Shown here: piece after piece, positions 191-59,644 of the stretch | How the letters are laid out: every line of letters starts with the position of its first letter | Position numbering within the stretch: the stretch's first letter is position 1 | Source of the DNA: a virus | DNA: 64,000 nt | Virus record (IMG/VR): IMGVR_UViG_3300045988_113168 | Strand: one strand, 5' to 3' | Made by a program: the position numbers and the translations under genes | Notes under the pieces: model-generated | The model's input: the letters and a program-made list of their open reading frames with translations, nothing else | Told to the model about the DNA's origin: nothing | The model's database searches: none

Positions 191-1180
191 TCAAATCTCA
201 AATCGATCCTTTGCAGACTGAATCTTTGTGGTATCCTTTTTGATGTAATACTTGTTGGTCACATCCGTGCCAGCATGGTTGAGCAGGGAAGAGACATCTT
301 CCAGACTCATGCCCGCGTTCTTCAGCAGGGTAGCACCACTATGCCGGAAGTCATGCGGGTGCAGCGTGGGCTCATCAATCATCTCACCAATTTTCTTACA
401 CCAATCACCAGCGGTGCTTGAAGTAATCGGCATCCATGCACCATTGGTTTTCGTACCAACAAACACATAGCCGCCATCCTCAATATCATGCTCAGTGCGG
501 TATTCCTTCAGCTCTTTCAAAAGCTCAAAAACCTCCTTGCTGAACATCAGATCAACGATTTTACCTTCCTTTTCCAGAACGTCATGCACCATGCGATTTT
601 CATAATCGATAGATTTCCAGAGTGTATTCCGCACAGCATTGACACGAGCCATCGTGGATAGCGAGAACAGTGCGTACAGACGCAGTGTCATCGCATTATC
701 CTTCATGTGAACTGTGGTCGCAGATTCAACCAGGGCGTTCAGCTTCTCTCGCATCAACTTAACCTCATCCGGCGTAAGGTACGTCTGCTTCACAACAGCC
801 ACGTCCTTTGTCGGTCGGTCAATGAACTCCATCGGATTCTCTTTGATGATTTTTTTCTTACGAAGATACCGATATAGCGCAGAAATTGTACTCATGCGCC
901 GCTTCATACGAGCAGAGTTATTTCCATGCTTCTTACAGTAGAACAGAAATTCCTCAATATCCTCTTCTTCAAGTTCCGTCACAGGAGCGTTGCCCTGATT
1001 ATCCAAAACATAAATCATCCACTGCTTGAAATCCGATTCATAATTGTAAACAGTAGACGGGCTGAGGTCACGGATGCCCATATCAGTCTCATATCTATCC
1101 CAGTATTTCAAAGACACTGGGTTTACGTTTTTGAACTTCTCAGCATCCCATAACTTCAGCGGTTTACTTCTTGTAGCCAT
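191..1180 (-). CDS. int: tyrosine recombinase / phage integrase
   Basis: 329 aa; C-terminal HPHDFRHSGATLL ... LLNHAGTDVTNKYY (HxxR ... H ... Y catalytic signature); SD GGAGGG before ATG. Confidence 0.85.
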   Translation of the reverse strand: MATRSKPLKLWDAEKFKNVNPVSLKYWDRYETDMGIRDLSPSTVYNYESDFKQWMIYVLDNQGNAPVTELEEEDIEEFLFYCKKHGNNSARMKRRMSTISALYRYLRKKKIIKENPMEFIDRPTKDVAVVKQTYLTPDEVKLMREKLNALVESATTVHMKDNAMTLRLYALFSLSTMARVNAVRNTLWKSIDYENRMVHDVLEKEGKIVDLMFSKEVFELLKELKEYRTEHDIEDGGYVFVGTKTNGAWMPITSSTAGDWCKKIGEMIDEPTLHPHDFRHSGATLLKNAGMSLEDVSSLLNHAGTDVTNKYYIKKDTTKIQSAKDRFEI

Positions 1181-6945: not shown

Positions 6946-6975
6946 CTATAAAAGCGGAGACTTTGCGGTCTCCGC
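6946..6975 (-). terminator. rho-independent terminator after capsid gene
   Basis: minus-sense GCGGAGAC-cgcaaa-GTCTCCGC then TTTTAT, 22 nt after the exon-2 stop. Confidence 0.75.
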
Positions 6976-6997
6976 CCAGATTTGCCTTTGGTAAAAA

Positions 6998-7171
6998 TTA
7001 CTGCAGAACAATCTTAGCAACGCGCTCGATATGATCAATGCTATAACCGAAGGTAAAGTCCTTGACCATCAGATGAATCTTCTCGTTATTGTTGTCGTGA
7101 TCCTCGTAAGTATGAGTCTCACCCTTCATGTCAAGGCGACCGATCTTGCCCGCGATACCATAAATTCTCTT
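6998..7171 (-). CDS. major capsid protein, exon 2 (C-terminal 57 aa)
   Basis: open frame KRIYGIAGKIGRLDMKGETHTYEDHDNNNEKIHLMVKDFTFGYSIDHIERVAKIVLQ* with no start codon or SD; continues exon 1 (..GSLLIPD) in frame after intron removal. Confidence 0.7.
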   Translation of the reverse strand, partial: KRIYGIAGKIGRLDMKGETHTYEDHDNNNEKIHLMVKDFTFGYSIDHIERVAKIVLQ

Positions 7172-8758
7172 CTGTTATTTTTAAGAAAAATGTTTATCTA
7201 AAATTGATTCAATGTTATCAAAATCCGTGTAGGGAATCCTGATAAGCTTAATGCCGTTATTTTGGCAATATTCGGTTTTAATGTTGTCATTCCGTTTCTG
7301 TGTCTCAAATTTATACTTGACACGTTCAGCAGATTCGCCGTCTCCAAACTTTACTGGCTCAAAATGTTGTTCTCCATCGTATTCGATGCAAGTGTTTTTG
7401 TCCTTGACGTAAAAATCAAATGGTAATGGACGAATATTCCTACAATCATCAAACTTAAATTCACGAGTGTAGTTTATTCCGTTGTCATCAAAATACTTTG
7501 CAATACGTAAAGCGCCATGCGATAGGTTGCATTTTGGGCAACCTCTTCCTGCTAAAACAGAACCAACAAGAGTGTGCCACTCATAACCACATTTTTTGCA
7601 TCGAAAATTCGCATGAGATGACATATCTTTATAACCATTTATGTATTCAATACGATCATTCGTTTTTGCAATTCTTTCAATAATTTCTGCCTCTGAGACA
7701 CGAGCCTTTCCAGCACATTTTGGGCAACCAGAATTTCTGTTATTAAGTATCGTATCAGGAATTGCAGTCCAATGATAACCGCAAACATCACATGCAAAGT
7801 CCACTTTTACGGCAATGCGAACGTATTTTGAAAGAACGCGGATAGTAGGAAACCGCTCGTGCATTTCTTTCAAAAACTCATCTTCTGTGCGTCTATTTGC
7901 AGCACGCCGATAACACTCCATACACCCATGACCTTCAAGCAAAGTGTGTGGAATGCCGTCCCACTCGTATCCGTCAATTTTACACTTACAGCGAACACGA
8001 GAATCGTTTTTCTCATACTCCGAAAGTAATTCGATGTTTGGATTTACTTTAAAAAGTTCTTCTTTAAATTGAGTAGGAGACTTTCGGTTAGACTTCCCTC
8101 GCTTTGAAGATGCACAAATTTGACACCCATGCCCTTCAAAAAGAATTCTGGCTTGAACTTCTCTAATATCTCCACATACTGTGCATTTTCTAAGAATTGG
8201 TTTCCTTGAGCCTTTATACTCAGAAAGCAACACAATAGTCGGATTTAATTCAAACACTTTCTTTTTAAACTCTTCGTTGGTTATTTTCGAACCCATTCTA
8301 CACACCTCCTTTCTTGCAAAATAAAAGCCAGATACTCTACACAGCATCTGGTTGAATCAAAATATTAGATAAACACTATAATCGGACGCTACTCCGTTCT
8401 TGTTGCATATAGCAACCTCGTACTCTCATACGAGCAAAGACTATATCTTCACCCAGTAAAACTGGGGCACACCACTTCGGATGCCAGACACTTGCATCCT
8501 AACCGCTCCCACGCGGATAGTCGTTGAACCTTCTCCTTTTCGGAGCTTGGCTGCTGATTGCCCATTATTTTTAATGTTTAGGTTTTAACCATGCATCATC
8601 TACAATTTTCTTTCTACTTTCGCAACCATCCATCTAGGTATATTTCATCCTTCTGTTTTGGTAATTGTAGTTTTAGGGTTTTCCAGCAATTCAATGTGTA
8701 TTTGTTATCGTGACTTACATCACGACTGGACTATATTACGTAAATTTACATAAATTTA
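7172..8758 (-). mobile_element. group I intron (IA-like) carrying a homing endonuclease ORF, inserted in the capsid gene
   Basis: 5' splice after U (..CCGGAU|UAAAUU). P1 can form GGAUUA/UAGUCC with a U.G wobble at the splice site. Core strands AACGACUAUCC and GUGAAGAUAUAGUCUUUGCUCG resemble P7/J8-7 of T4 td and Tetrahymena introns. Intron ends in G (..AACAG|AAGAGA). Confidence 0.75.
7181..8296 (-). CDS. intron-encoded homing endonuclease (4 zinc-ribbon repeats + Vsr/PD-(D/E)XK-like nuclease core)
   Basis: 371 aa from ATG after GAAAGGAGG. Four repeats of C-x2-C ... G-x-GC-x-x-C. C-terminus LPFDFYV ... CIEYDGEQHF ... IKLIRIPY. Confidence 0.7.
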   Translation of the reverse strand: MGSKITNEEFKKKVFELNPTIVLLSEYKGSRKPILRKCTVCGDIREVQARILFEGHGCQICASSKRGKSNRKSPTQFKEELFKVNPNIELLSEYEKNDSRVRCKCKIDGYEWDGIPHTLLEGHGCMECYRRAANRRTEDEFLKEMHERFPTIRVLSKYVRIAVKVDFACDVCGYHWTAIPDTILNNRNSGCPKCAGKARVSEAEIIERIAKTNDRIEYINGYKDMSSHANFRCKKCGYEWHTLVGSVLAGRGCPKCNLSHGALRIAKYFDDNGINYTREFKFDDCRNIRPLPFDFYVKDKNTCIEYDGEQHFEPVKFGDGESAERVKYKFETQKRNDNIKTEYCQNNGIKLIRIPYTDFDNIESILDKHFS

Positions 8759-9580
8759 ATCCGGGATCAGCAGGGAACCATCACCCAGCTTCTTGGCAGA
8801 GCTAATACCAGTAATAGCAACACCATCGTAAGTCTTAACCAGACCATAACGGTTAAACTCGTCCTTAGCTGCGTCAGACAGATACTCAGCGTAGCCGGTC
8901 ATACGACGCATCTTGGCACAATACTTCATCAGGCTGACAGTGAAGGGATTACCACCATCTGCGTACTCATTCAGATACAGAGCCAGAGCGTCCATATCCT
9001 GCATAGTGGGCTCCTTACCCTGTGCATCGATCTTCTGCTCGCCACCAGTGATAGCGTCATCAACCATGCTAAAGATGTCATAGAACATCTGGTTCTTCAG
9101 AGCCTCAGTCATAAAGGTGGTCAGAGTTGCCACACTCTTCCAAGCATTGCGTCTTACATCCACAAAGCTAAGATCAGCCTCGATCTGCTTATTACGCCAG
9201 ACGGGCTTAATGGTCTCGTAGTGCAGGTAAGACTTCGGCACGTTGCCGCCCTTAGCTGCATCATAAGCCTTCAGAGTGTTCTTAACAGTACGACCTGCCT
9301 CGTAATCATCAAACTCACCAACATTACCACGCTCAAACATGGAGTCCAGCAGCTCATCAGGTGCGCCATACAGCTCATCAGTCACGGTGCGGTTAACAAA
9401 CTGAGCAATCTCCTTGTTGGGGTCACCCTTGTCAATCAGCTCCTCAACATGAGCGCCAACAACCTCAGCAATCTCCTTATCCTCGGCATCCATAGCGCGA
9501 TTGTACTGAGTCTTCTCAGCAACTTCATAAACACGACCAGGCTGCTTCATCAGCTCGGCCACTTCAATATTCAGTGCCAT
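8759..9580 (-). CDS. major capsid protein, exon 1 (274 aa)
   Basis: position after scaffold/decoration genes and before a strong terminator; the TAA directly after ..LLIPD is the first intron codon. Confidence 0.65.
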
Positions 9581-9604: not shown

Positions 9605-9637
9605 AAAATAAAAGAGCTACCGCCAAAGACGATAGCC
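9605..9637 (-). terminator. probable rho-independent terminator
   Basis: imperfect stem GGCTATCG/CGGTAGCT followed by CTTTTATTTT on minus strand. Confidence 0.45.
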
Positions 9638-13409: not shown

Positions 13410-15260
13410 TTAGAAGTCAATATTAGAAATACAAATTGGCGGTGCAGTCATTACCTCCACCGCAGACTGGCGCACTTTATCCTTACGACGTAATTCATAT
13501 AGACGATGAGCAAGCAAGATCGCAACATAGAACCTATCATCGTGGATTTTGTTGGCAACATCGGGCGCTAAAGCATACGTTACAGTCGTGTTTTCAGAGT
13601 TTGTCGTTTTCTGAATACTTGTAATCTCGTTCTTCATCAAGTCGATGTTAACCCACGCAGTTTGTTCTTCTAAAGTAAGTTCATGCGTCTTCAAAATTTC
13701 TTGACCAGTTGATTTATCCACGCCGTCTACTACCTGAACGTAATCTCCGCCGTTATATTCAAGAGGGAAGTGAATGACGCCAAGATTCATCAACTCAATA
13801 AATTCCTCAACCATGGCAGTACGGAATTTACGAGGACTAATTAGACGTAGCTTATCAACAGCATCTGGGTAACGGGCATCATATCCTTCATATAATTCAT
13901 GATTTGCGTCGATAAAACCACGATGTTCCGCACCTGTTTTATCGGTCCAATTATTAAGCAAACCGTCCGCATATGTGGAAGTACCACCGCCGCCAGCGCC
14001 TTGGTCAATCATCAATCTATCAATGTACTCGTAATCAGGATTTTGACCATTGTAATGTAGAATCAACTCATGTAACTGCTCAAGCTGACGATTAGAATCG
14101 AGCTTGAATTTTTTCTCATTTGCAATATCAACCATGTTCACGCAGTTGATAATATCTCCACACATGCCATTTTCTGGATCGTTATAAATACGCATAACAC
14201 CAACAATAGAATTATCCATTGTGCGGGCAGGATCAAACGCAAGAATATACTGATAGTTCTTATCCCAATAAAGCTGTGGGATATACTTTCGCTCATTGCG
14301 ACGAACTGTGCCCCATTTGATAATCTGGTTTACGCCACCATCACGGCTTGGGCGATTATAATATTCACGCAACGCCTTCATTTTATTTGACTTTAGAGCG
14401 GCTTCCACTTTGTCTCTTGTCAACAAAGCCTTGTATGGTTTACCATTCATATAGACCTGAATTGCAACATCGCAAATCATGTCGCAAACAAAATAATCAC
14501 GGTCACCGGCGATCATACGTTTTGCAAAGTTTTTGTAATAACGATAGAATAGTTTATCCATTGTATCCTGACTCGAAGCATACACAAGTTGTGTAGGAAC
14601 CTTGCGAGGCTGAGTTTCAGGATTATAAGAATCATCCGTATCAGTCACGAAGTCAGTATTCTGAGTGGCAAAAGCTTCACAGACAACAATCAGTTCGTCA
14701 GAGCAAAACGCAGCCTCGTCAAAAAACACAAGAGTTGCACGACGGGATCGGTTGGAATCCGGGTTGGAGTTTAGCGTGTTAATGGAGCTACCGTTGTAAA
14801 ACTCAACAACATACCCGGCGGGATTATGACTAAAGCCACTCTTATTGGTTGCAGACTTTTTCGTTTCTTTCTCTGCAATATCTTGCAGACTACGGATAGA
14901 CGCAGCTGTTTTACCAACACGAGTGACAATTTCTTCGATTTTATTAAAAGTTTCCTTACTCTGATCACCAACGCTACTTACGATGTAAATAGCTTGGTTT
15001 TCATACAACATAGCCTTCAGTAGAATAAAAACAGAACCTACAAAAGACTTACCAAAATTTCGACTACACGCCCAAAGAACATGACTTGCATTCCAGCTTT
15101 GTTCCAGCATATATGCCTGAGCGTCAAATAGTTGGATACCCAATAAATCTCTGGCCGCAATAACAGGATTACGCCGATAGAACGCAATCGTTGCCGCATC
15201 ACACTCATAAATCTTACGTTTTACGGCTGTGATAATAGGCGCTCTTTGCTTCATTCTCAT
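13410..15260 (-). CDS. terL: terminase large subunit
   Basis: 616 aa; Walker A-like SRNFGKSF, Walker B LVFFDEAAF, C-terminal nuclease-size domain; followed by portal. Confidence 0.8.
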   Translation of the reverse strand: MRMKQRAPIITAVKRKIYECDAATIAFYRRNPVIAARDLLGIQLFDAQAYMLEQSWNASHVLWACSRNFGKSFVGSVFILLKAMLYENQAIYIVSSVGDQSKETFNKIEEIVTRVGKTAASIRSLQDIAEKETKKSATNKSGFSHNPAGYVVEFYNGSSINTLNSNPDSNRSRRATLVFFDEAAFCSDELIVVCEAFATQNTDFVTDTDDSYNPETQPRKVPTQLVYASSQDTMDKLFYRYYKNFAKRMIAGDRDYFVCDMICDVAIQVYMNGKPYKALLTRDKVEAALKSNKMKALREYYNRPSRDGGVNQIIKWGTVRRNERKYIPQLYWDKNYQYILAFDPARTMDNSIVGVMRIYNDPENGMCGDIINCVNMVDIANEKKFKLDSNRQLEQLHELILHYNGQNPDYEYIDRLMIDQGAGGGGTSTYADGLLNNWTDKTGAEHRGFIDANHELYEGYDARYPDAVDKLRLISPRKFRTAMVEEFIELMNLGVIHFPLEYNGGDYVQVVDGVDKSTGQEILKTHELTLEEQTAWVNIDLMKNEITSIQKTTNSENTTVTYALAPDVANKIHDDRFYVAILLAHRLYELRRKDKVRQSAVEVMTAPPICISNIDF

Positions 15261-16723: not shown

Positions 16724-16799
16724 TGGCACGCCCACTCCGATTCGGACAGAGAACAAATGGTTTTAGAGACCACTGCTTTACCAATTAAGCTACGGGCGC
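16724..16799 (-). tRNA. suppressor tRNA, anticodon CUA (reads UAG), tRNA-Trp-like body, CCA encoded
   Basis: GCGCCCG-UA-GCUU-AAUUGGUA-AAGC-A-GUGGU-CUCUAAA-ACCAU-UUGUU-CUCUG-UCCGAAU-CGGAG-UGGGCGU-G-CCA. The 7-nt loop has U33 and A37, so positions 34-36 = CUA. Confidence 0.75.
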
Positions 16800-16820
16800 A
16801 TAAATATATCAGCATACAGG

Positions 16821-16900
16821 TGGGTGCAGCGGTTGGATTTGAACCAACGAATACACGGCTTATGAGGCCGGTGCCGTAGACCTGACTGGGCAACGCTGCG
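16821..16900 (-). tRNA. tRNA-Met (CAU), possibly initiator-like
   Basis: cloverleaf with loop CUCAUAA, T-loop UUCAAAU, encoded CCA; C1 x A72 mismatch is reminiscent of bacterial initiator tRNA. Confidence 0.65.
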
Positions 16901-17008
16901 TCATATGGTGCCTAAGTGTCTCAAGAAATAGAAAGTCATGTGTACATCATGATTCTAAAACCCAGACTTCGGACTTGCTATATGTCGCGCTCATATAGCC
17001 ATTTTCTT

Positions 17009-17116
17009 CGAGCTTGACAGGATTCGAACCTGCGCTGTATCCACGAATAAGCAATCTCGCTTCGTGCAGATGTCTGCTACCATCCGCTACGTTCAACCTC
17101 TTCGCATTACAAGCTC
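17009..17116 (-). ncRNA. atypical 108-nt tRNA-like RNA
   Basis: perfect 7-bp acceptor GAGCUUG/CAAGCUC, Ser-like D-arm (GCG-AAGAGGUUGAA-CGU) and canonical T-arm GCAGG-UUCGAAU-CCUGU. Two hairpins replace a standard anticodon arm. Confidence 0.4.
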
Positions 17117-17183
17117 ACAATAAAACCTACCTTTTAGCCGGTGGTAGGGAACCGGTATAATATAGGCCCTCCGGGAGAAGGAC

Positions 17184-17275
17184 TGGCGCGGTCTCAGAGA
17201 TTCGAACTCTGGCATCGGATTTACCGACCTAACGGTGTTCAAGACCGTTCTCTTCAACCACTTGAGTAAGACCGC
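17184..17275 (-). tRNA. tRNA-Ser (UGA), class II, CCA encoded
   Basis: GCGGUCU acceptor, loop CUUGAAC, long variable arm, T-loop UUCGAAU. Confidence 0.75.
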
Positions 17276-17387
17276 ACAATAAAAACAAGCATCCATCAAG
17301 CCACCCGAGCTAGTTGAATTGTTCTCGTGTTGATAAAACGCTTGTTTTAAACTTTAATGGTCCGCACTTACGGTGGCGGAACACCAA

Positions 17388-17461
17388 TGCCAGAGGTCGG
17401 GTACGATCCGACAGTCTGCTGATTACAGGTCAGCTGCATTATCCATTTATGCTACCCTGGC
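17388..17461 (-). tRNA. tRNA-Thr (UGU) with unusual loops
   Basis: GCCAGGG acceptor, anticodon loop CCUGUAA (C33), T-loop AUCGUAC (A54/U58 swap). Confidence 0.6.
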
Positions 17462-20499: not shown

Positions 20500-21249
20500 T
20501 CATAAATCAAACATTTTTCTATTTTGCACGGTTTTCTCAATATTTACGTTTTTAGCGCACTTACGACAGTATTTTTGTCTGCGTCCGGTGCGAGCAACCA
20601 TCTTTCCGCAACAATCACACTTGATGTACTCTTTCCCACAATACTGGCTCCACAGAATACCAGCATTCTCAAAATCGTCCACGAAAATCTCATGAGGAGA
20701 ATCCGGCTCCGCAATCAAAACATGGATGTTCAAGTTGTCAATCTTTTTCAAGCTGGCAAACCCAATAAAGCCAAGATTATGTAACTCACAAATCATCTCG
20801 TTCTGTTTTTTTTCATTCGCGGATACGTTTGCCATCCTGAAAATATCAGCCGTATCTTCCGTAATCCAGTAGTTGCATTTTTCATTAACTGCAATATGAT
20901 ATTTTGCCAGACACAGCATCGTAAACATCAAGCGTTGCATCTGCTTGCCCTCAAGTGCTTGAATCTTCTCTACCTCTGCTTTTGTAATGCACACACCATC
21001 AAGTTCCACCATAGGACGGCCTTTAGCAGAAGCGATTGCTTTATCAATCAGTTCTCTATCCAGAACCTTGTTGTACCCTTCAAAATGACGCAACATATAC
21101 TCGTTGAGCTTTTCTCTTACATCATCCTTTGAGTACCCTTTGTAAAAATAGTACTTCGCAACATAATGCAAAACATGCCCCGCCCTTTTCCAAGGTACAT
21201 CCTTTTCTAGCCACTCTTCAGCGTAAAGAACTTCATTCAATACAATCAT
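20500..21249 (-). CDS. hypothetical protein with C-terminal zinc ribbon
   Basis: 249 aa; second ATG is properly spaced from AAGGAGG; CDCCGK...CRKC. Confidence 0.6.
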   Translation of the reverse strand: MIVLNEVLYAEEWLEKDVPWKRAGHVLHYVAKYYFYKGYSKDDVREKLNEYMLRHFEGYNKVLDRELIDKAIASAKGRPMVELDGVCITKAEVEKIQALEGKQMQRLMFTMLCLAKYHIAVNEKCNYWITEDTADIFRMANVSANEKKQNEMICELHNLGFIGFASLKKIDNLNIHVLIAEPDSPHEIFVDDFENAGILWSQYCGKEYIKCDCCGKMVARTGRRQKYCRKCAKNVNIEKTVQNRKMFDL

Positions 21250-24016
21250 CCGCATCCTCCTTGCTATTCATGTTAATCAACACATCCTTGAAACGCTTGC
21301 CATCATATTCAATATCGCCATTCTCGTCCTGCACAAGAGAATGCACCATACCGTCATGGCGTTCCAATAAGCGTTTAATCAAAGTATCATGAAACAGTTC
21401 CCAGACGATTGCAATACTGGATGCATTCTTCTTACAAAGATCAAGCATAATATCGCAAAGCACATCGTCATTGGAACATTTATCGTGAAGATTACGGAAC
21501 ATGCTTTCCTGATATAGCGCAATTCGTTCCTTGCGGTCTGCGCTGGTTTCTTTATTATTGTTTCCGTTGCCAGAATGGATTGCGTTGCCACGAGCAAATC
21601 TCAAGTAATCCTTAAAAATAGAGCGAATACCATAGTATTGAGAATTAGTGTACTCAATGCCAGACTTGAGCGAGTCGTAATCAAACTTGCGCTTTATCTT
21701 GAGTTCTTCTTCAAAATCTTCCAGCTCGTCCTCAACAGTCCAGCATAGGCGGTTCATGGTACAAGAATTGATTCCGACCGGCATCCGATAGAGGTAATAC
21801 TGGATAACCATTTCATCCACATCGTCCTTGACGGTCTTTTGCATAATCTCATCCAGACCAGCAAACCCATCCCACTTGATGCGCTTGCGAGCTGCGGCCA
21901 CATACTGCTTGTAGTCTCGCATCTGAGAAGGATAAATATAACTCATAAAGTACGGCTTTCGATAAGCACAAATACGAGCCAAGAATTTTTTATCCTCGAT
22001 AGTATCTGGGTTATCACCCTCGCTTGGAACGCAAGCTTTGTTGTCATACCAATATTTTGGCATAGGTACGCAGGAAATTCCCTTTATGCGATCAATCGTG
22101 TCCTGTTGATATTTCTGGCCAGAAATAATACGATATGTAAGCTCTTTATATTCTCTACTTTCTGGCTCAAATTTACTCTGTACATCAAACATCGTTGTAA
22201 TACGATTAGTTACCTTGCCGATATCATCACCAAATCCATTGATATTAGAGTCAATGAAATCCTGCTCGGTTGGAATTTTCTTTTCACCTTTTTTCTGAGC
22301 ACAAAGAATTACAGTCTCATCCCTCCATCTATCAAGGAGGACTCTGTTATCTGTGCTAAAGATGAGATCGCCATCCCAGTCCATTCCGTCGAGTGCTGCA
22401 CATGTGTTATCAAACGCACTTACGATAGCTACAGTCTTCATGTAACGATACCAGTTCTTACATTCGTCACTCGAATTTAAATTTAAGCACCGAATATTCG
22501 CCATCTGACTCATAGGAGCTCTAAAACAAGCCACTCGCTTAACATCTCTATCATTCCAAAAACGGCTGTAAACCTCACCGGCCTTTAACAGTCCAGTGAC
22601 TTCCATTCCAAAGATGGATTGGCAAAGTGCGTATGGATCTCCGCTTGCTACTTGAAAATTCCCTCGTACCTTCACAACACCCGTCTTTGCCTGAGAGATT
22701 CGCTTTTTAATAAAGTACCGAATTCGATTCTGCACATACGGGTCGTTAATCATGTCCGGCTCAATCATGAGAGCCTTAATGTAATCATTCTCAAGAGAGT
22801 TGACATACCCTGCGTCATCTCGCATCCCGCTTCCACGCAAATACAGCAACGCATCACGCCAGTCGCCGCCCATGACACCTTTGATTTCATCCAGAGTCGG
22901 CTTGACCAGTTCTCTAATCTCGTCATTCGTAAGCTGATAGCTTTGAATGAATTGATAATTCAAATTGCGTTCTTCATCAAGTTCCAACTCGCAGGTTTTC
23001 GTTACAGAGAAGTGATAATGGTTTTCCTGACAATTTTCAAAGTAATCCTCACAATTATGGTAACTATCCCATAGCTTTAACATCGACCCTGTAAGAATCA
23101 CTTGAACACGATTAACATCCTTATAGTTCCCCCAAATGTCCTTCACCATATTCTTTTTCGCAATCTTCTTTGCGAACTCACGGAAAGGGAAGGGGAATAG
23201 CATACCTTTACAAAAAGCGTTCCGTACACAGAAACCAGATGCTGTGGATGGCAGCTTTAAATCTTCGCTCCACTGTTGAGCAAGGTCATAGCTAATGAGT
23301 CCAAAACCATCGCTAGCGCACAACTCACAATCATGTTCCATATCCTCTACCATCGTAGGCTCACCGGATGCTCCATCGTCCAGAACGATTACATGGTCTT
23401 TGAAATGAGTGAAACAATCGTCTACGACCAGCACACCGTCTGGATCAGTGACCGGAATGGATGCAGAGCAGGCGAGTGCCCGATATGCTTCCAGCTTTGC
23501 CGGAATAAACTCCATTCCCTTGTTACGGCCATTGTCGATTCGTTTGCGGATCTCATCAACAAGACGGTCGCTCACAAACACAATCGTACTATTCTTGACA
23601 CCACCGGTAGTTCCAACCAAACGACGATATGTAATCCCATTGATTTTGAACCCTTTAGGAGAACATGCCCGGCGGTAATCATTCTTCTTGTCTACCACCA
23701 GACACATATAATCCGGCTTGAACTGAACTGCATCCAACTCAGTATACAATCTCCGAATCTCCCGGCGGTTCTCTAAACAAGATTGTTCATTCCGTAACAT
23801 CTTGATTCTACGCTTGATGCTCCGTGCCTTAGACTCTGCATCCGTAACACCATTCAACTCGTCAATCCATCGTAGAACAGTGCTATCAGCTAACGAGATG
23901 ATCTCGTGGTTTCGTCTGGCTTCATCCAATGGTAGGGTTAAATCCCATTTCGCTTCAACTAGACGCTTCGTATGAATCTTAAAAACAAACTTCTGACAAG
24001 TTTGCTGTTTTGCCAT
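21233..24016 (-). CDS. putative single-subunit RNA polymerase (YonO / RdRP-like two-barrel family)
   Basis: 927 aa; ALDGMDWDGDLIFS contains the DxDGD metal-binding signature of two-barrel RNAPs and cellular RdRPs. It is preceded by VACFRAPMSQMANIR (the R.P element seen in RdRP alignments). Confidence 0.55.
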   Translation of the reverse strand: MAKQQTCQKFVFKIHTKRLVEAKWDLTLPLDEARRNHEIISLADSTVLRWIDELNGVTDAESKARSIKRRIKMLRNEQSCLENRREIRRLYTELDAVQFKPDYMCLVVDKKNDYRRACSPKGFKINGITYRRLVGTTGGVKNSTIVFVSDRLVDEIRKRIDNGRNKGMEFIPAKLEAYRALACSASIPVTDPDGVLVVDDCFTHFKDHVIVLDDGASGEPTMVEDMEHDCELCASDGFGLISYDLAQQWSEDLKLPSTASGFCVRNAFCKGMLFPFPFREFAKKIAKKNMVKDIWGNYKDVNRVQVILTGSMLKLWDSYHNCEDYFENCQENHYHFSVTKTCELELDEERNLNYQFIQSYQLTNDEIRELVKPTLDEIKGVMGGDWRDALLYLRGSGMRDDAGYVNSLENDYIKALMIEPDMINDPYVQNRIRYFIKKRISQAKTGVVKVRGNFQVASGDPYALCQSIFGMEVTGLLKAGEVYSRFWNDRDVKRVACFRAPMSQMANIRCLNLNSSDECKNWYRYMKTVAIVSAFDNTCAALDGMDWDGDLIFSTDNRVLLDRWRDETVILCAQKKGEKKIPTEQDFIDSNINGFGDDIGKVTNRITTMFDVQSKFEPESREYKELTYRIISGQKYQQDTIDRIKGISCVPMPKYWYDNKACVPSEGDNPDTIEDKKFLARICAYRKPYFMSYIYPSQMRDYKQYVAAARKRIKWDGFAGLDEIMQKTVKDDVDEMVIQYYLYRMPVGINSCTMNRLCWTVEDELEDFEEELKIKRKFDYDSLKSGIEYTNSQYYGIRSIFKDYLRFARGNAIHSGNGNNNKETSADRKERIALYQESMFRNLHDKCSNDDVLCDIMLDLCKKNASSIAIVWELFHDTLIKRLLERHDGMVHSLVQDENGDIEYDGKRFKDVLINMNSKEDADDCIE

Positions 24017-56031: not shown

Positions 56032-58242
56032 ATGAGAACTTTGCTTCTTTTCCGTGGAGCACCAGGATGCGGGAAGTCCACCTATATTAAAGAGCATGAT
56101 CTGGAAAAGTATACGCTTAGTGCCGATACGATTCGCCTTATGTGTCAGGGTGGTCAGGAAACCCCGGCTGGCACAATGGAAATCTCTCCCCAGAACGATG
56201 ATGTTGTCTGGGATATGCTCTTTAAACTGTTGGAGGTTCGGATGTCTCACGGTGAATTTACCGTGATTGATGCAACGAACTCTAAAACTGTCGAAATCAA
56301 TCGCTATAAGAATCTTGCCAAGCAGTACAGGTACAGAATGTACATCATCGACATGACTGATTTGCCCATTAGTGAGTGTAAACGGCGTAATTCGCTTCGC
56401 ACTCTTCTGAAGAGAGTCCCGGATGCTGCCATTGATAAGATGTATGCACGATTCGCAACGCAGAAGATTCCGTCTGGTGTGACTGTACTCTCGTCAGATG
56501 TAAATATCCTTGAGAAATTGAACTATGTTCCGCAGGACTTTAACAACTGGAGCAAAATTCATATCATCGGTGATGTGCATGGGTGTTACAGTTGCTTGAA
56601 AGAGTATCTTGGCGACCTGAAGGATGATGAACTGTACATTTTTGTTGGCGATTATCTGGATCGTGGAATTGAAAATGTAGAGATGTTCAAGTTCCTTTGT
56701 GATGTTGTAGACAATAATCGGAAGAATGTGATCCTTTTGGAAGGAAATCACGAGCGTTGGCTGAACAAGTGGGGGCATGATGAACCGGTTCAGAGTGAAG
56801 AATTTGCAAACTACACTCGTCCGCAGCTCTTTAAAGCCGGTATTGACAAGAACACTGCTCGTAAGATCTATTCCAGAGTCGGCCAATGTGCCTACTTTGA
56901 GTATGATGGGAAACGGTATTTTGTGAGCCACGGTGGTTTGAGTTATCTGCCTTATTTTCTTCCTTTTGTATCTGCTGATCAGATGATTAAAGGCGTAGGT
57001 CGCTATCCTGATATGCTAACCGTGGCTGAGTCTTGGGAAAAATCGATGCCGGATAGCTGCATTCAGATCTTCGGTCATCGAAATGTGCAGGATGTTCCCA
57101 TTGATATGGGGCATCGGTGCTACAACCTCGAAGGAAAAATCGAGTTTGGTGGATATCTCCGTTGCGTGGAACTTGAACACGGTCAGTCAATCAAATGTGT
57201 AGAAACCAAGAACGATGTGTTCCGAAAAGAGGAGCCAAAGACTGAAACTGCCGTTGAAATGAAAACTGAGTTCGATAACGCAGAACTTGTTAGTAAGATG
57301 CGCAAAAGCAAATATGTGTTTGAGAAGCGATTCGGAGATATTTCTTCTTTCAACTTCTCTCGTGAAGCATTTTACAAGAAGCACTGGGATGAGGTTTCTA
57401 CCAAAGCAAGGGGATTGTTCATTAACACAAAGACGAATAAGATTGTAGCTCGAAGCTATGATAAGTTCTTTGCGGTTGATGAGCGGAATGAAACGAGAAT
57501 TGGAAACCTACAGAACACTTTGAAGTTCCCGGTGACTGCATATCTAAAAGAGAATGGATTTCTCGGTATCATTTCGTATGATGCAGAACAGGATGGTCTG
57601 TTCATTGCAAGTAAATCTACTCCTGAAGGGCCTTTTGCAGATATGTTCCGAAAGATTTTCATGGATACGACTTCTGATGAAGACCGTAAGAATCTAAAGG
57701 AAGTTGCAAAAGAGAATGGTTCCATCATTTTTGAGGTAATTGATCCTGTAAATGATGCTCATATCATCGAATACAAGACACCACATATTGTTTTGCTGGA
57801 TATTATTGCGAATGATATGAACTTCAGTGTGATGGATTACGATGATCTGAAGCGTGTTGCTGAAAAGTGTCATTTGCAGATTAAGGAGAAGGTTAAGATC
57901 TTTGAGAGCTGGAGTGAATTCTATCCTTGGTATGAAGAAGTCATGAATGAGAATTATCTGTACCATGGCATCGAGCATATTGAAGGTTTTGTTTTGAGAG
58001 ATAACAACAATTTTATGTTTAAGCTGAAGCTTCCTTATTATAAGCACTGGAAGTTCTTGCGTGGTGTTATGCAGAGCGTACAGAAGCGTGGCTATTACGA
58101 AAACACTGCCAAGCTGTTTACTGCTGAAGATAATTTATTCTATGGTTGGATGCGTGAACAACGAGAGAAAGAAAAAGAGTCTTTCTGCAAGAAGGGTATT
58201 ATTCAGTTACGGAATGAATTCTATGAGAATCGGCACGAATAA
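56032..58242 (+). CDS. trifunctional RNA-repair enzyme: polynucleotide kinase + metallophosphatase + ligase-like adenylyltransferase (Pnkp-like)
   Basis: 736 aa; P-loop GAPGCGKST, phosphoesterase motifs GDVHGC / GDYLDRG / GNHE, and a C-terminal KENG (KxNG nucleotidyltransferase motif I). Same domain order as Clostridium thermocellum Pnkp. Confidence 0.7.
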   Translation: MRTLLLFRGAPGCGKSTYIKEHDLEKYTLSADTIRLMCQGGQETPAGTMEISPQNDDVVWDMLFKLLEVRMSHGEFTVIDATNSKTVEINRYKNLAKQYRYRMYIIDMTDLPISECKRRNSLRTLLKRVPDAAIDKMYARFATQKIPSGVTVLSSDVNILEKLNYVPQDFNNWSKIHIIGDVHGCYSCLKEYLGDLKDDELYIFVGDYLDRGIENVEMFKFLCDVVDNNRKNVILLEGNHERWLNKWGHDEPVQSEEFANYTRPQLFKAGIDKNTARKIYSRVGQCAYFEYDGKRYFVSHGGLSYLPYFLPFVSADQMIKGVGRYPDMLTVAESWEKSMPDSCIQIFGHRNVQDVPIDMGHRCYNLEGKIEFGGYLRCVELEHGQSIKCVETKNDVFRKEEPKTETAVEMKTEFDNAELVSKMRKSKYVFEKRFGDISSFNFSREAFYKKHWDEVSTKARGLFINTKTNKIVARSYDKFFAVDERNETRIGNLQNTLKFPVTAYLKENGFLGIISYDAEQDGLFIASKSTPEGPFADMFRKIFMDTTSDEDRKNLKEVAKENGSIIFEVIDPVNDAHIIEYKTPHIVLLDIIANDMNFSVMDYDDLKRVAEKCHLQIKEKVKIFESWSEFYPWYEEVMNENYLYHGIEHIEGFVLRDNNNFMFKLKLPYYKHWKFLRGVMQSVQKRGYYENTAKLFTAEDNLFYGWMREQREKEKESFCKKGIIQLRNEFYENRHE

Positions 58243-58308: not shown

Positions 58309-58387
58309 GGCCCTATGGCGGAACGAGGCATACGCAACAAGCTCAAACCTTGTAAAATTCTCAGTTCAAATCTGAGTAGGGCTACCA
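58309..58387 (+). tRNA. tRNA with anticodon CAA but class I (short variable arm) architecture, CCA encoded
   Basis: GGCCCUA acceptor, loop CUCAAAC, T-arm CUCAG-UUCAAAU-CUGAG, A73. Confidence 0.5.
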
Positions 58388-58466
58388 ACCCATTTGCAGA
58401 TGGGTAAGTGCTAGAATATTGGCAAATCGGAAAGACGGTTGACTGCTGGACAGACAGCTTTGATAT

Positions 58467-58551
58467 GTCACTATGGCGAAATTGGCGAGACGCATCGGAC
58501 TTAAGTTCCGACGGTAGCGATACCATCTGGGTTCGACTCCCAGTAGTGACA
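58467..58551 (+). tRNA. tRNA-Leu (UAA), class II
   Basis: GUCACUA/UAGUGAC acceptor, loop CUUAAGU, long variable arm, T-loop UUCGACU. Confidence 0.75.
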
Positions 58552-58558
58552 CTGATAT

Positions 58559-58634
58559 CCGGGTGTAGCTCAGTTGGAAGAGCGCGTGCTTTGGGAGCAT
58601 GAGGCCGCAGGATCGTGACCTGTCACTCGGACCA
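58559..58634 (+). tRNA. tRNA-Pro (UGG), CCA encoded
   Basis: loop UUUGGGA; T-loop AUCGUGA (A54/U58). Confidence 0.7.
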
Positions 58635-58666
58635 GCCCGAAAGGGCATGTAGAATTTTTCATTCAC

Positions 58667-58722
58667 ATTATTCCCAGCTCTCTGGAAACAGAGCAGTGTG
58701 GCGTAGCAAGCTGGGTAGATTA
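58667..58722 (+). repeat. 56-nt structured tRNA leader element, copy 1
   Basis: ATTATTCCCAGCTC..; 7-bp stem CCCAGCT/AGCTGGG enclosing CTCTG-GAAA-CAGAG; abuts tRNA-Gln. Confidence 0.7.
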
Positions 58723-58794
58723 CGAGGATTAGCCAAGCGGATAAGGCAGTGGAATTTGACTCCACGACCGCAGGTTCGATTCCTGTATCCTCGA
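58723..58794 (+). tRNA. tRNA-Gln (UUG)
   Basis: CGAGGAU/AUCCUCG acceptor, loop AUUUGAC, T-loop UUCGAUU. Confidence 0.7.
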
Positions 58795-58801
58795 TTTATA
58801 T

Positions 58802-58886
58802 GCGGGTATGGTGTAACTGGCAGCCACGCGGATTTTAGGTGTCCGTGCCGAAAGGCGTGAGGGATCGTGCCCCTCTACCCGTACCA
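58802..58886 (+). tRNA. tRNA-Leu (UAG), class II, CCA encoded
   Basis: loop UUUAGGU, variable arm UGCCGAAAGGCGU, T-loop AUCGUGC. Confidence 0.7.
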
Positions 58887-58933
58887 CGGTCATAGAATGG
58901 TTGCGTACCGTTTGTTGATCTCCTTTGACCACT

Positions 58934-58989
58934 ATTATTCCCAGCTCGCTCGTAAGAGTGCAGTAGTGCTTTGTAAGCTGAGTGATTGT
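58934..58989 (+). repeat. 56-nt structured tRNA leader element, copy 2
   Basis: ATTATTCCCAGCTCGCTCGTAAGAGTGCAGTAGTG..TAAGCTGAGTGATTGT; same architecture (GNRA hairpin CTC-GTAA-GAG). Confidence 0.7.
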
Positions 58990-59061
58990 GCAGTTATGGT
59001 GTAGTTGGTAAGCACGCTTGCTGATGAAGTAAGAGGATGAGTTCAAAACTCATTGACTGCA
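58990..59061 (+). ncRNA. tRNA-like gene with aberrant anticodon loop
   Basis: good acceptor, D and T arms (AUGAG-UUCAAAA-CUCAU), but the loop is UGAUGAA (G33) and the variable region is 3 nt; anticodon not assignable by eye. Confidence 0.4.
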
Positions 59062-59065
59062 AAAT

Positions 59066-59258
59066 ATGAAATCAGTTGTTCTAGCTCGTTCGTGGATTGG
59101 CCGTACATTGGCGACCGGAAAGACGTCATACCGGTAAAGGACGTCAAGCCAGACAAGAAGAGAAATAAGGTGTAAGCCGACTAGCTATCGGATAAATACT
59201 CTTCGGTTCGCCAGAAAACTAGAATGTAAAACGAATGGTTGGCTGTTTCTGATTTCAT
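59066..59258 (+). ncRNA. unclassified ~193-nt structured RNA inside the tRNA array
   Basis: closed by a 10-bp stem ATGAAATCAG/CTGATTTCAT, then TTCTAG/CTAGAA. Internal GGCGACCGGA/TCTTCGG(T)TCGCC, GACGTC/GACGTC and CCGA/TCGG helices. No ORF. Confidence 0.45.
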
Positions 59259-59264
59259 TTATAT

Positions 59265-59340
59265 GCGACTGTAGTTCAATTGGCAGAGCGTCAGATTTCC
59301 AATCTGAATGTTGCGGGATCGTGCCCCGTCAGTCGCTCCA
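59265..59340 (+). tRNA. tRNA-Gly (UCC), CCA encoded
   Basis: GCGACUG/CAGUCGC acceptor, loop UUUCCAA, T-loop AUCGUGC. Confidence 0.7.
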
Positions 59341-59471
59341 CACGCAGCCCCTTACGCTGCACCGGTTGCTCAGAGCCGAAAGAAACCTATATGTTACGAC
59401 ATGGTTGCCAAGAGTGATCATATTGGAACGCGACGTAGCTTGGATAGTGAGAATTAAATTCTGAGGTATAC

Positions 59472-59540
59472 TGCTGGATAGCTTAATGGTAAAAGCGCTC
59501 GGAAACGCCGAGAGATAAGGTTCGATTCCTTCACTGGCAT
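59472..59540 (+). ncRNA. 69-nt tRNA-like RNA with 5-nt anticodon-position loop
   Basis: D-arm GCUU-AAUGGUAA-AAGC and T-loop UUCGAUU are present, but the anticodon arm is CUCGG-AAACG-CCGAG. Confidence 0.35.
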
Positions 59541-59567
59541 CACGCCGATGAAAGTCGGCGTTTGCAT

Positions 59568-59644
59568 GGGATAGTAGCTCAGTTGGTCAGAGCTGGCGGC
59601 TCATAACCGCTTGGTCGCGAGTTCAAATCTTGCCTGTCCCACCA
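59568..59644 (+). tRNA. tRNA-Met (CAU) (elongator or Ile2-type), CCA encoded
   Basis: GGGAUAG acceptor, loop CUCAUAA, T-loop UUCAAAU. Confidence 0.7.

What the first reader, a model, noticed from the sequence alone, without database searches (positions are those of the whole stretch)
6998..9580. Major capsid gene interrupted by a group I intron carrying a multi-zinc-ribbon Vsr-like homing endonuclease
Exon 1 stops at a TAA right after ..GSLLIPD. About 1.6 kb further along the same strand, an orphan frame with no start or SD continues KRIYGIAGKIG... to a stop followed by a strong terminator. The intervening RNA has:
- a P1 with a U.G wobble at the splice site
- td/Tetrahymena-like P7 strands (ACGACUAUCC ... 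GAAGAUAUAGUC)
- P8 and P9 hairpins
- a terminal G

The endonuclease ORF sits in the 3' (P9) extension and ends 9 nt before the 3' splice site. The spliced product would be a 331-aa capsid protein.
Basis: partly seen in the sequence, partly recalled or inferred. Interest (0 to 1): 0.7.

Follow-up and report, generated by a model that had tools for sequence, protein, structure and literature searches.

The report
Mobile intron splitting a phage capsid gene
The major capsid gene of an uncultivated SPβ-like gut phage is split by a 1,587-base group I intron that carries its own DNA-cutting homing enzyme; this is a well-supported but ordinary example of a known kind of selfish genetic element.

Summary
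On the minus strand, exon 1 (9580-8759) ends ...GSLLIPD and runs into a TAA made of the first three intron bases. A 1,587-nt group I intron follows (8758-7172), then exon 2 (7171-6998) and a terminator hairpin. Rfam scores the core at 75.3 bits (gathering score 50). The joined 331-aa protein is colinear with uninterrupted 331-aa homologues at 99% identity, and it models as an HK97-fold capsid of the SPβ YonB family. The same intron sits at the same codon in capsids only 45-99% identical. Across nine copies, 40 of 92 base pairs show compensatory changes, including the exon-guide pair in P1. The 3' splice site is fixed by a 2-bp P9.0 pairing that covaries in four states. The intron ORF (8296-7181) has four Cys4 zinc ribbons and a C-terminal Vsr-fold nuclease with the EDxHD-type Asp/His/Asp. 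Related phages show empty sites, full introns, a frameshifted endonuclease gene and an ORF-less 392-nt intron, plus signs of horizontal transfer and endonuclease-cassette swapping. Splicing and DNA cleavage were not shown experimentally. Group I introns in phage capsid genes and Vsr-like homing endonucleases are both already described, so this is a new member of a known kind.

The parts
8759..9580 (-). Capsid exon 1 (274 codons, ATG at 9580, last base U8759)
   Evidence: ORF list and translation. It is colinear with the intron-less gene in L001. Homologues are assigned Pfam YonB.
7172..8758 (-). Group I intron, subgroup IA-type, 1,587 nt. Its first three bases, UAA, form the in-frame stop; its last base is G7172 (omega-G).
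   Evidence: Only one junction reproduces the intron-less allele. Rfam gives 75.3 bits over 8759-8417. Covariation supports the structure. All 13 carriers end in G.
8728..8762 (-). P1: exon GGAU plus intron UA (8762-8757) pairs with the internal guide UAGUCC (8733-8728), with U8759.G8731 at the splice site. The P1 extension hairpin lies between the two strands.
   Evidence: Minimum-free-energy fold. The exon-guide pair at column 9/43 occurs as G-C (7 copies), A-U (1) and C-G (1), tracking the synonymous Pro codon CCG/CCA/CCC.
8707..8726 (-). P2 hairpin with a GNRA loop (GUAA)
   Evidence: 7 of 8 pairs show compensatory changes. The loop is GUAA in the window and GAAA in L008.
8468..8698 (-). 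P3 (8698-8692 with 8474-8468), which encloses P4 (8688-8683 with 8557-8552), P5 with its extension (8678-8561), P6/P6a (8551-8528), the P7 5' strand (8522-8517), P7.1 (about 8516-8503) and P7.2 (8499-8479)
   Evidence: RNAalifold, run blind, recovers P4, P5, P5a-d, P6 and P7.2. Pair counts support them. Hairpins between P7 and P3' are the IA hallmark named in PMC3984707.
8435..8467 (-). P8 (8467-8450), J8/7 plus the P7 3' strand GAAGAUAUAGUC (8450-8439), and J7/9 UUUG (8438-8435), whose last two bases form P9.0
   Evidence: Match to the Rfam consensus. P7 is invariant in all nine copies. P9.0 covaries.
8383..8434 (-). P9 (8434-8417), P9.1 (8416-8402) and P9.2 (8396-8383)
   Evidence: Compensatory pairs occur in all three helices.
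8318..8351 (-). Terminator-like hairpin plus U-tract inside the intron, just upstream of the endonuclease ribosome-binding site
   Evidence: Pattern scan. Fold at -13.8 kcal/mol, z = -4.4. The hairpin is kept, with base changes, in L002 and L008. Its function is unknown.
7181..8296 (-). Homing endonuclease gene (371 aa). The SD AAAGGAGG lies at 8312-8305. The protein has four Cys4 zinc ribbons and a C-terminal Vsr-fold nuclease (D294, E305, D307, H311, D337, K340).
   Evidence: Pfam DUF4379, CapR and DUF723, with weak DUF2726. PHROG homing-endonuclease families. Family alignment. AF2 model at pLDDT 90.7. Foldseek hits to 1vsr and 1cw0.
7172..7180 (-). 3' tail AAAUAACAG. C7174 and A7173 pair with U8436 and G8435 (P9.0). 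G7172 is omega-G.
   Evidence: P9.0 covaries in four states across 13 introns.
6998..7171 (-). Capsid exon 2 (57 codons plus TAA)
   Evidence: Colinear with intron-less alleles. It is under purifying selection in carriers: 10 synonymous and 0 nonsynonymous codon differences against L002.
6948..6976 (-). Intrinsic-terminator-like hairpin after the capsid gene
   Evidence: Fold at -17.1 kcal/mol: a 9-bp stem followed by UUUUAU.

Best explanation
This is a mobile group I intron, with a subgroup IA architecture, inserted in the major capsid (HK97-fold, YonB-type) gene of an SPβ-like phage. The phage probably infects gut Clostridia or Lachnospiraceae.

Inferred mechanism, from established group I chemistry:
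- The capsid gene is transcribed as one pre-mRNA.
- Ribosomes stop at the UAA formed by the first three intron bases, which leaves the ribozyme free to fold.
- The internal guide pairs with the last exon-1 bases (P1, U.G at the splice site).
- An external guanosine attacks after U8759.
- The 3' end is positioned by P9.0 and omega-G7172, and the exons are ligated. The result is an mRNA for the 331-aa capsid protein.

The intron also encodes, after P9.2, a 371-aa endonuclease with its own strong ribosome-binding site. Four zinc ribbons are inferred to bind DNA, and a Vsr-fold (EDxHD-type) nuclease is inferred to cut intron-less capsid alleles near ...CCGGAT|AAG.... Repair from the intron-carrying copy would then copy the intron, plus some flanking exon, into the cut genome (homing).

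Shown here: the anatomy, the family assignments, the exact junctions, structure conservation, presence/absence polymorphism and horizontal-transfer signatures.
Inferred only: splicing, cleavage and homing.
For: Intron identity and structure:
- Rfam Intron_gpI scores 75.3 bits, E = 1.2e-18, full length. The same family is found in every carrier and not in the empty-site locus L001.
- Only one junction makes the window colinear with the intron-less gene: 996 nt against 996 nt with 41 substitutions.
- 331-aa uninterrupted homologues at 99% identity read LLIPDKRIYGIAGK across the junction.
- On nine introns, 98.7% of cells pair and 40 of 92 pairs have compensatory changes. Slid controls give 0-5, and 0 of 500 shuffles reach the observed values.
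- The P1 exon-guide pair occurs in three Watson-Crick states.
- P9.0 occurs in four complementary states, up to 1.26 kb apart.
- Omega-G is present in 13 of 13 introns.

Exon 2 is expressed:
- It evolves under purifying selection in carriers: 10 synonymous and 0 nonsynonymous differences, and 15 and 1.

Capsid identity:
- The joined protein has an HK97 fold and the Pfam YonB assignment, in a YonD/YomW/YomU gene neighbourhood.

Endonuclease:
- Vsr fold at probability 1.00.
- Invariant D294, H311 and D337, with the same 17-residue D-to-H spacing as I-Bth0305I D196 and H213.
- PHROG homing and intron-encoded nuclease families.

Mobility:
- Related phages show an empty site (L001, L136, L137), a full intron, a frameshifted endonuclease gene (L009) and an ORF-less intron (L172).
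- Against L011, the ribozyme is 88-99% identical while distal exon 1 is only 57-72% identical, and exon identity rises to 84-87% next to the intron.
Against: - There is no RNA or biochemical evidence that this copy splices or that the endonuclease cuts.
- P7, P4 and most of P3 are invariant, so covariation says nothing about them. They rest on the match to the consensus.
- No convincing P10 pairing was found.
- A terminator-like hairpin with a U-tract sits inside the intron (8351-8318). If it worked as a terminator, it would lower exon-2 transcription.
- The endonuclease has no sequence-level match to any solved structure, and I-Bth0305I (3R3P) was not among the top 50 fold matches.
- The capsid model is only moderately confident (pLDDT 74.7).
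Confidence: 0.9

Rival explanations
1. The intron splices, but its endonuclease is no longer, or not only, a homing enzyme. It could be inactive in this copy. It could act as a splicing helper (maturase). Or it could mainly serve competition between phages by cutting the capsid gene of co-infecting intron-less relatives.
For: - The endonuclease module is a mosaic. It is only 71% identical at the DNA level to the module in L002, whereas the exons and the ribozyme are each 97% identical.
- The window's exact protein is absent from a 5.8-billion-protein collection; the best match is 84%.
- Decayed (L009) and ORF-less (L172) copies show that the ORF is dispensable for keeping the intron.
- A phage intron endonuclease that interferes with a competing phage is documented for PhiPA3 (PMC11620839, abstract seen).
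Against: - The ORF is intact.
- All invariant family residues are present: the four Cys4 sets plus D294, E305, H311, D337 and K340.
- It has a strong SD.
- No maturase has been reported for this endonuclease class; this rests on my own knowledge and was not tested.
Confidence: 0.2
2. The interrupted gene is a dead or decaying capsid gene in a defective prophage. The intron-like sequence no longer splices, and only a truncated 274-aa product is made.
For: - Gene callers annotate only a 274-aa product and a separate 43-aa ORF.
- The window carries an integrase, so a prophage state is possible.
Against: - Exon 2 is kept in frame and under purifying selection in all carriers, which span 45-99% capsid identity.
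- Ribozyme helices are maintained by 40 compensatory pairs, and the splice-site pairings P1 and P9.0 covary.
- The carrier allele P0015 occurs on at least 23 contigs of up to 147 kb.
- In the model, residues 276-329 form five beta-strands of the HK97 fold, which a truncated protein would lack.
Confidence: 0.03
3. The two capsid pieces are expressed as separate polypeptides, or are rejoined at the protein level (split gene or intein-like) rather than by RNA splicing. The endonuclease would then be a free-standing gene between them.
For: Free-standing homing endonuclease genes between split phage genes are known; this rests on my own knowledge. Exon 2 contains an internal ATG at 7129.
Against: - Exon 2 has no start codon or SD at its 5' end, and none before the ATG at 7129.
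- No intein or Hint domains were detected.
- A complete group I ribozyme with splice-site pairings lies exactly at the break.
- An ORF-less 392-nt intron occupies the same site in L172, so the interruption does not depend on the endonuclease gene.
Confidence: 0.02

Closest known systems
Phage group I introns of subgroup IA with 3'-terminal or peripheral endonuclease ORFs (T4 td, nrdB and nrdD/sunY; Bacillus SPO1 and SPβ introns; Staphylococcus Twort/K introns)
   Same: - Self-splicing-type core with P1-P9 and extra hairpins between P7 and P3'.
- U.G at the 5' splice site and omega-G at the 3' end.
- An in-frame stop right at the intron start.
- An endonuclease ORF looped out of a peripheral element with its own SD.
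- Insertion in a highly conserved stretch of an essential phage gene.
- Presence/absence polymorphism among close relatives (general features from PMC3984707).
   Different: - The host gene is the major capsid gene, not a nucleotide-metabolism, polymerase or lysis gene.
- The endonuclease is not GIY-YIG, HNH or LAGLIDADG.
- The phage lineage has no match in the isolated-phage collection by megablast or tblastn.
Group I introns in major capsid genes of crAss-like phages (Delta and Zeta groups; Yutin et al. 2021, PMC7886860)
   Same: A gut-virome phage with its HK97-fold capsid gene split by one or more group I introns that carry endonuclease domains.
   Different: - A different phage order and host phylum (Bacteroidetes hosts there; here the relatives sit in Clostridia and Paenibacillus genomes).
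- A single intron here against up to four there.
- Here the splice sites, the structure and the homing-cycle states are resolved to the nucleotide.
I-Bth0305I and the EDxHD (Vsr-like) homing endonuclease family (Taylor et al. 2011, PMC3239194)
   Same: - Encoded in a group I intron of a phage that infects a Gram-positive host.
- C-terminal nuclease with a Vsr fold.
- Conserved Asp...His...Asp, with an identical 17-residue Asp-to-His spacing.
   Different: - I-Bth0305I binds DNA through N-terminal NUMOD/HTH motifs, and its ORF sits in P5. Here there are four Cys4 zinc ribbons (DUF4379, CapR, DUF723) and the ORF follows P9.2.
- No sequence-level hit to 3R3P, and 3R3P was not among the top 50 fold hits.
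- The Asp-to-second-Asp spacing is longer (43 residues against 26).
Zinc-ribbon plus Vsr-like nuclease ORFs in isolated Firmicutes phages (for example 'intron-encoded protein B' of Staphylococcus phage SPJ2, Lactobacillus phage 3-521, Listeria phage P70, Streptococcus thermophilus phages)
   Same: The same full-length architecture at about 31% identity in 635 phage records, of which 139 cover at least 80% of the query. PHROG 559 matches at E = 1.3e-87.
   Different: These are annotated inconsistently as HNH endonuclease, homing endonuclease, restriction enzyme or hypothetical protein. None of those inspected was reported in a capsid gene. Their contexts were not examined here.

Membership tests
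Group I intron (Rfam RF00028) | Covariance-model score at or above the curated gathering score | tested here: met
   75.3 bits against 50, E = 1.2e-18, model positions 1-253. Carriers score 63-84 bits. The ORF-less L172 copy scores 42.3 bits, below the gathering score, with E = 2.6e-9.
Group I intron (Rfam RF00028) | P1 formed by the end of the 5' exon and an internal guide sequence, with U.G at the cleavage site | tested here: met
   GGAU|UA pairs with UAGUCC in the minimum-free-energy fold. U.G is invariant in all nine copies. The adjacent exon-guide pair occurs as G-C, A-U and C-G.
Group I intron (Rfam RF00028) | Conserved core helices P3-P8 and P4-P6, including the P3/P7 pseudoknot | tested here: met
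   98.7% of cells pair and 40 of 92 pairs are compensatory. P7 and P4 never vary, so they rest on the consensus match only.
Group I intron (Rfam RF00028) | Terminal guanosine (omega-G) at the 3' splice site, positioned by P9.0 and/or P10 | tested here: met
   G is the last base in 13 of 13 introns. P9.0 covaries in four states. No P10 pairing was found by inspection.
Group I intron (Rfam RF00028) | Guanosine-dependent self-splicing | not testable with these tools
   Needs an in vitro transcription and splicing assay, or RNA reads across the junction.
Subgroup IA group I introns | Extra P7.1 and P7.2 hairpins between P7 and P3' | tested here: met
   P7.2 (8499-8479) has 3 compensatory pairs. 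A P7.1 hairpin with one compensatory pair is predicted blind by RNAalifold. The assignment to IA1, IA2 or IA3 was not resolved.
EDxHD / Vsr-like homing endonucleases (I-Bth0305I type) | Catalytic domain with the Vsr endonuclease fold | tested here: met
   Foldseek: 1vsr at E = 5.3e-3, probability 1.00, TM 0.56 (normalised to the target); 1cw0_A at probability 1.00. The model has pLDDT 90.7.
EDxHD / Vsr-like homing endonucleases (I-Bth0305I type) | Conserved catalytic residues Asp (Vsr D51), His (H69) and Asp (D97) that make up the E-D-x-H-D motif | tested here: inconclusive
   D294, E305, H311 and D337 are invariant and D307 is at least 90% conserved in 38 family members. The D294-to-H311 spacing equals that of I-Bth0305I D196 to H213. 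Residue-by-residue superposition on Vsr or 3R3P was not done.
EDxHD / Vsr-like homing endonucleases (I-Bth0305I type) | N-terminal NUMOD/HTH DNA-binding region | tested here: not met
   The N-terminal 260 residues are four Cys4 zinc ribbons (Pfam DUF4379, CapR, DUF723). No NUMOD hit was found.
EDxHD / Vsr-like homing endonucleases (I-Bth0305I type) | Detectable sequence or fold similarity to I-Bth0305I itself (PDB 3R3P) | tested here: not met
   No PDB sequence hit with a single sequence or a profile. 3R3P is absent from the top 50 Foldseek matches.
EDxHD / Vsr-like homing endonucleases (I-Bth0305I type) | Site-specific cleavage of the intron-less allele near the insertion site | not testable with these tools
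   Needs purified protein and an L001/L137-type target DNA.
HK97-fold major capsid protein, Pfam YonB (PF27364) | HK97 fold | tested here: met
   356 PDB matches at E <= 0.001, all of the listed top matches being phage capsids or encapsulins. The best is the NF5 capsid at 2.6e-9, probability 1.00. The model has pTM 0.73 and pLDDT 74.7.
HK97-fold major capsid protein, Pfam YonB (PF27364) | Match to the family profile | tested here: inconclusive
   PF27364 is precomputed for many homologues, some marked weak. The local Pfam copy gave no hit for exon 1 or exon 2 alone; the joined protein was not scanned against the local Pfam copy. One homologue is named 'Major capsid protein' by UniRef.
HK97-fold major capsid protein, Pfam YonB (PF27364) | Position in a head-morphogenesis module | tested here: met
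   The minus-strand gene order is TerL (13410-15260), a 541-aa ORF, a YonD-like ORF, a 165-aa ORF, then the capsid gene. YomW- and YomU_Tube-like genes lie downstream in relatives.

The most novel reading that the evidence does not exclude
The endonuclease cassette, the last bases of the intron and the first ~12 nt of exon 2 may travel together as a swappable specificity module. Different cassettes (68-85% protein identity) sit in otherwise 97%-identical introns. Each is associated with its own synonymous recoding of the exon-2 start (AAGAGAATTT, AAACGTATTT or AAAAAGATCT). The P9.0 partner 1.26 kb upstream changes in step with the 3' tail.

If so, related SPβ-like gut phages would be in an arms race. 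Intron endonucleases would cut the capsid gene of co-infecting relatives, giving both interference competition and homing, and target-site recoding would give immunity. The intron-internal terminator-like hairpin might further restrict capsid and endonuclease expression to a terminator-insensitive phage RNA polymerase.
Probability: 0.15. Interest if true: 0.55.

Novelty: new member of a known kind. Interest (0 to 1): 0.3.

Why it matters
- Annotation: gene callers report this essential capsid gene as a truncated 274-aa protein plus orphan ORFs, and PHROGs labels the endonuclease family 'HNH' although its nuclease domain has a Vsr fold. Recognising the intron restores a correct 331-aa capsid protein for a whole lineage of uncultivated SPβ-like gut phages.
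- Biology: the set of related contigs gives an unusually complete natural snapshot of the homing cycle at one site. It includes the empty site, an intron with an intact endonuclease gene, a frameshifted endonuclease gene, and an ORF-less intron. It also shows nucleotide-level covariation of both splice-site pairings (P1 with the exon, and P9.0 across more than 1 kb). This makes it a convenient system for studying intron spread and endonuclease-cassette exchange in gut phages.
- Limits: it does not change any general concept.

Tried and rejected
- Megablast and tblastn of the region and of the joined capsid against 50,697 isolated-phage records found nothing. The lineage is known only from metagenomes.
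- phmmer and a profile search of the endonuclease against PDB sequences gave only marginal zinc-ribbon hits. The fold search was needed to see the Vsr domain.
- The 14-nt core motif GTTCAACGACTATC occurs in at least 120 viral contigs. It is generic to group I cores, so I did not follow those loci further.
- I considered a covariance model of the whole ribozyme but did not build one. At about 390 positions, calibration would exceed the stated limit. MAFFT alignments with a hand-mapped structure were used instead. P7.1 and P8 shift register between lineages, so they are under-counted.
- Rfam's own alignment places its P1 on an intron-internal hairpin. I rejected that in favour of the exon-guide pairing, which the fold and covariation support.
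- RNAalifold proposed long-range pairings 35-41/438-444 and 74-79/396-401. I rejected them because they conflict with the canonical P1 and P3.
- I looked for P10 by eye and found no convincing pairing.
- Literature searches for 'YonB' found no paper containing that term. Calling YonB the SPβ capsid family therefore rests on the Pfam name, the fold and the gene order.
- The sigma-70 promoter scan was no better than shuffled sequence (5 found, 6.1 expected). Nothing can be said about promoters, and the phage appears to encode its own YonO-like RNA polymerase.
Full report
**Observation.**
All features lie on the minus strand.
- An ORF of 274 codons runs from ATG 9580 to GAU 8761-8759 (...GSLLIPD). 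TAA at 8758-8756 follows directly.
- 1,587 nt downstream, a frame with no start codon or Shine-Dalgarno reads KRIYGIAGKIG...AKIVLQ and stops at 7000-6998.
- A 9-bp GC-rich hairpin (6976-6953) with a UUUUAU tail follows, at -17.1 kcal/mol.
- Between the two frames lies an ORF from 8296 to 7181, preceded by AAAGGAGG. Its stop codon ends 9 nt before the second frame begins.
- Every coordinate and motif in the finding checks out.

**It is a group I intron.**
- Rfam's Intron_gpI model matches 8759-8417 over its full length at 75.3 bits (gathering score 50), E = 1.2e-18.
- It is the only such match in the 64-kb window, even at permissive thresholds.

**The exact splice junctions.**
- A search with the joined protein found uninterrupted 331-aa proteins at 99% identity and 100% coverage (P0001-P0003), and hundreds of 328-334-aa relatives down to 53%. 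All of the full-length homologues that were aligned continue through the junction, most reading LLIPDKRI(Y/F)G; L139/P0013 reads LLIPNARIFG.
- The intron-less gene on L001 is 996 nt. Joining window 9580-8759 to 7171-6998 also gives 996 nt and aligns without gaps, with 41 substitutions.
- Shifting either boundary by one base breaks the match. So the last exon base is U8759 and the last intron base is G7172.
- This satisfies the group I rules of a U before the 5' splice site and a terminal G.

**Structure and covariation.**
- The same intron sits at the same codon in capsid genes that are 99%, 94%, 71%, 70%, 52% and 45% identical to the window's (L002-L007, L015, L008-L010, L011-L013, L169, L172).
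- RNAalifold, run blind on nine ribozyme segments, recovered P2, P4, P5 with its extension, P6, P7.2, P9, P9.1 and P9.2, with 24 compensatory pairs.
- I then wrote out the canonical architecture, including P1 and the P3/P7 pseudoknot. On an alignment that includes the two most distant copies:
  - 98.7% of cells pair.
  - 40 of 92 pairs have changes on both sides.
  - Sliding the 3' partners by 1-3 columns gives 0-5 such pairs and 32-41% pairing.
  - No shuffle out of 500 reaches the observed values.
- P4 and P7 are invariant, and P3 has one compensatory pair. These core helices rest mainly on their match to the consensus.
- Hairpins between P7 and P3' (P7.1, P7.2) indicate a subgroup IA architecture, which is usual for phage introns.

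**Both splice sites are defined by covarying pairings.**
- P1: GGAU|UA pairs with UAGUCC, with U8759.G8731 at the splice site. The neighbouring exon base is the third position of a proline codon. It reads G, A or C in different phages, and the guide base reads C, U or G to match.
- P9.0: the two bases before the terminal G pair with the last two bases of J7/9. The states are:
  - CA/UG in the window and L015.
  - UG/CA in eight other copies.
  - UA/UA in L169.
  - UC/GA in L172.
- The single mismatch is in L009, whose endonuclease gene is also frameshifted.
- In the window these partners (8436-8435 and 7174-7173) are 1.26 kb apart.

**The host gene is the major capsid gene.**
- Homologues carry the Pfam family YonB. 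They sit between YonD-like and YomW/YomU(tube)-like genes, downstream of the large terminase.
- An AlphaFold2 model of the joined protein (pTM 0.73) matches 356 PDB chains at E <= 0.001, and every listed top match is an HK97-fold phage capsid or encapsulin.
- Residues 276-329, encoded by exon 2, form five beta-strands of that fold, so the 274-aa product would be incomplete.
- In intron carriers, exon 2 shows 10 synonymous and 0 nonsynonymous codon differences (window vs L002), and 15 and 1 (vs L015). It is therefore translated.
- The window also encodes an RdRP-family protein of the YonO type and a tyrosine integrase.
- Related capsid genes lie in Lachnospiraceae, other Clostridia and Paenibacillus genomes. 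The phage is SPβ-like, and its host is probably a gut Clostridia member.

**The intron ORF.**
- The 371-aa protein has four Cys4 modules, with cysteines at 38/41/58/61, 103/105/125/128, 169/172/191/194 and 233/236/253/256. They match Pfam DUF4379, CapR and DUF723.
- A C-terminal domain shows invariant F-D294-F, E305-x-D-G-x-Q-H311 and D337-x-x-K340 across 38 family members.
- No solved structure matches by sequence.
- A confident model (pLDDT 90.7) matches E. coli Vsr (1vsr, 1cw0) at probability 1.00.
- The Vsr-like EDxHD homing endonuclease family is defined by I-Bth0305I, with D196, H213 and D222 (PMC3239194). The D-to-H spacing here is identical.
- I-Bth0305I uses NUMOD/HTH motifs rather than zinc ribbons, and 3R3P was not among the top fold hits. 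I therefore call this enzyme Vsr-like and EDxHD-type in mechanism, but not a demonstrated member of the I-Bth0305I lineage.
- The same architecture occurs at about 31% identity in 635 isolated-phage records, under inconsistent names.

**Evidence of mobility.**
- Related phages show the whole homing cycle at this one site:
  - Empty sites (L001, L136, L137/138).
  - An intron with an intact endonuclease gene.
  - An intron with a frameshifted endonuclease gene (L009).
  - A 392-nt ORF-less intron whose P9.2 is followed almost directly by the same 3' tail (L172).
- Against L011, the first 600 nt of exon 1 are 57-72% identical, the 200 nt next to the intron are 84-87%, and the ribozyme is 88-99%. 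This is the pattern expected from horizontal transfer with co-conversion.
- Against L002/L003, identity is 95-99% up to about 8380, falls to 48-84% across the endonuclease gene, and recovers after the 3' splice site. So the endonuclease cassette has been exchanged or evolves much faster.
- The first ~12 nt of exon 2 differ by synonymous changes between cassette types and empty sites, whereas 36 nt of exon 1 are almost invariant.

**What is not shown.**
- No RNA data or enzymology is available here, so splicing, cleavage and homing are inferences from anatomy and comparison.
- A terminator-like hairpin inside the intron (8351-8318) is unexplained.

**Novelty.**
- Group I introns in phage capsid genes have been reported for crAss-like phages (PMC7886860).
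- Intron-rich gut phages with metatranscriptome-confirmed splicing have been described (PMC12880540).
- Vsr-like homing endonucleases are an established family.
- This is therefore a well-documented new member of a known kind. Its main value is for annotation and as a clean natural example of the homing cycle.

Noticed in passing
window 13410-15260 (-); L002:1-2198, L003:1-2171, L013:41-1209: The large terminase gene is intact in the window. In close relatives it is interrupted after residue ~163 next to a LAGLIDADG ORF (L002-L004), and near residue 574 next to a GIY-YIG/NUMOD1 ORF (L013). These phages therefore carry several variable mobile insertions in their head genes.
   Followed up: partly
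window 8318-8351 (-): A stable hairpin (-13.8 kcal/mol, z = -4.4) followed by CUUUUAUUUU lies inside the intron, just upstream of the endonuclease ribosome-binding site. It looks like an intrinsic terminator in the middle of an essential transcript. Relatives keep it, with base changes.
   Followed up: partly
window 21233-24016 (-): A 927-aa protein matches Pfam RdRP (PF05183, E = 5.7e-14). This is the family of the SPβ YonO single-subunit RNA polymerase, which supports the SPβ-like assignment. It also means host-type promoter and terminator rules may not apply to the late genes.
   Followed up: no
window 56032-58242 (+) and 58309-59641 (+); 16727-17461 (-): A 736-aa fusion of a kinase (AAA_33), a phosphoesterase and a T4 RNA ligase 1 domain (Pnkp-like RNA repair) sits directly upstream of a cluster of nine tRNA genes. 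A second cluster of four tRNA genes lies near the terminase. This could be a tRNA repair and replacement module against host anticodon nucleases.
   Followed up: no
L005:5216-10757: In one carrier contig the intron endonuclease ORF breaks off after about 122 aa. The sequence then continues into ParB, ArdA and type IV coupling-protein genes. This is probably a chimeric assembly, or possibly a junction with a conjugative element.
   Followed up: no
window 9615-9637 (-): A terminator-like hairpin with a U-tract lies between the 165-aa upstream gene and the capsid start codon.
   Followed up: no
window 7129-7171 region and L001/L136/L137/L139 junctions: The 36 nt of exon 1 before the insertion site are almost identical at the DNA level, even between capsids only 70% identical, while the first ~12 nt of exon 2 vary synonymously. 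L139, an empty site, reads CCCAAT|GCTCGC and may be a naturally resistant target.
   Followed up: partly
window 191-1180 (-): A tyrosine integrase gene lies at the distal end of the structural module, which suggests a temperate lifestyle.
   Followed up: no
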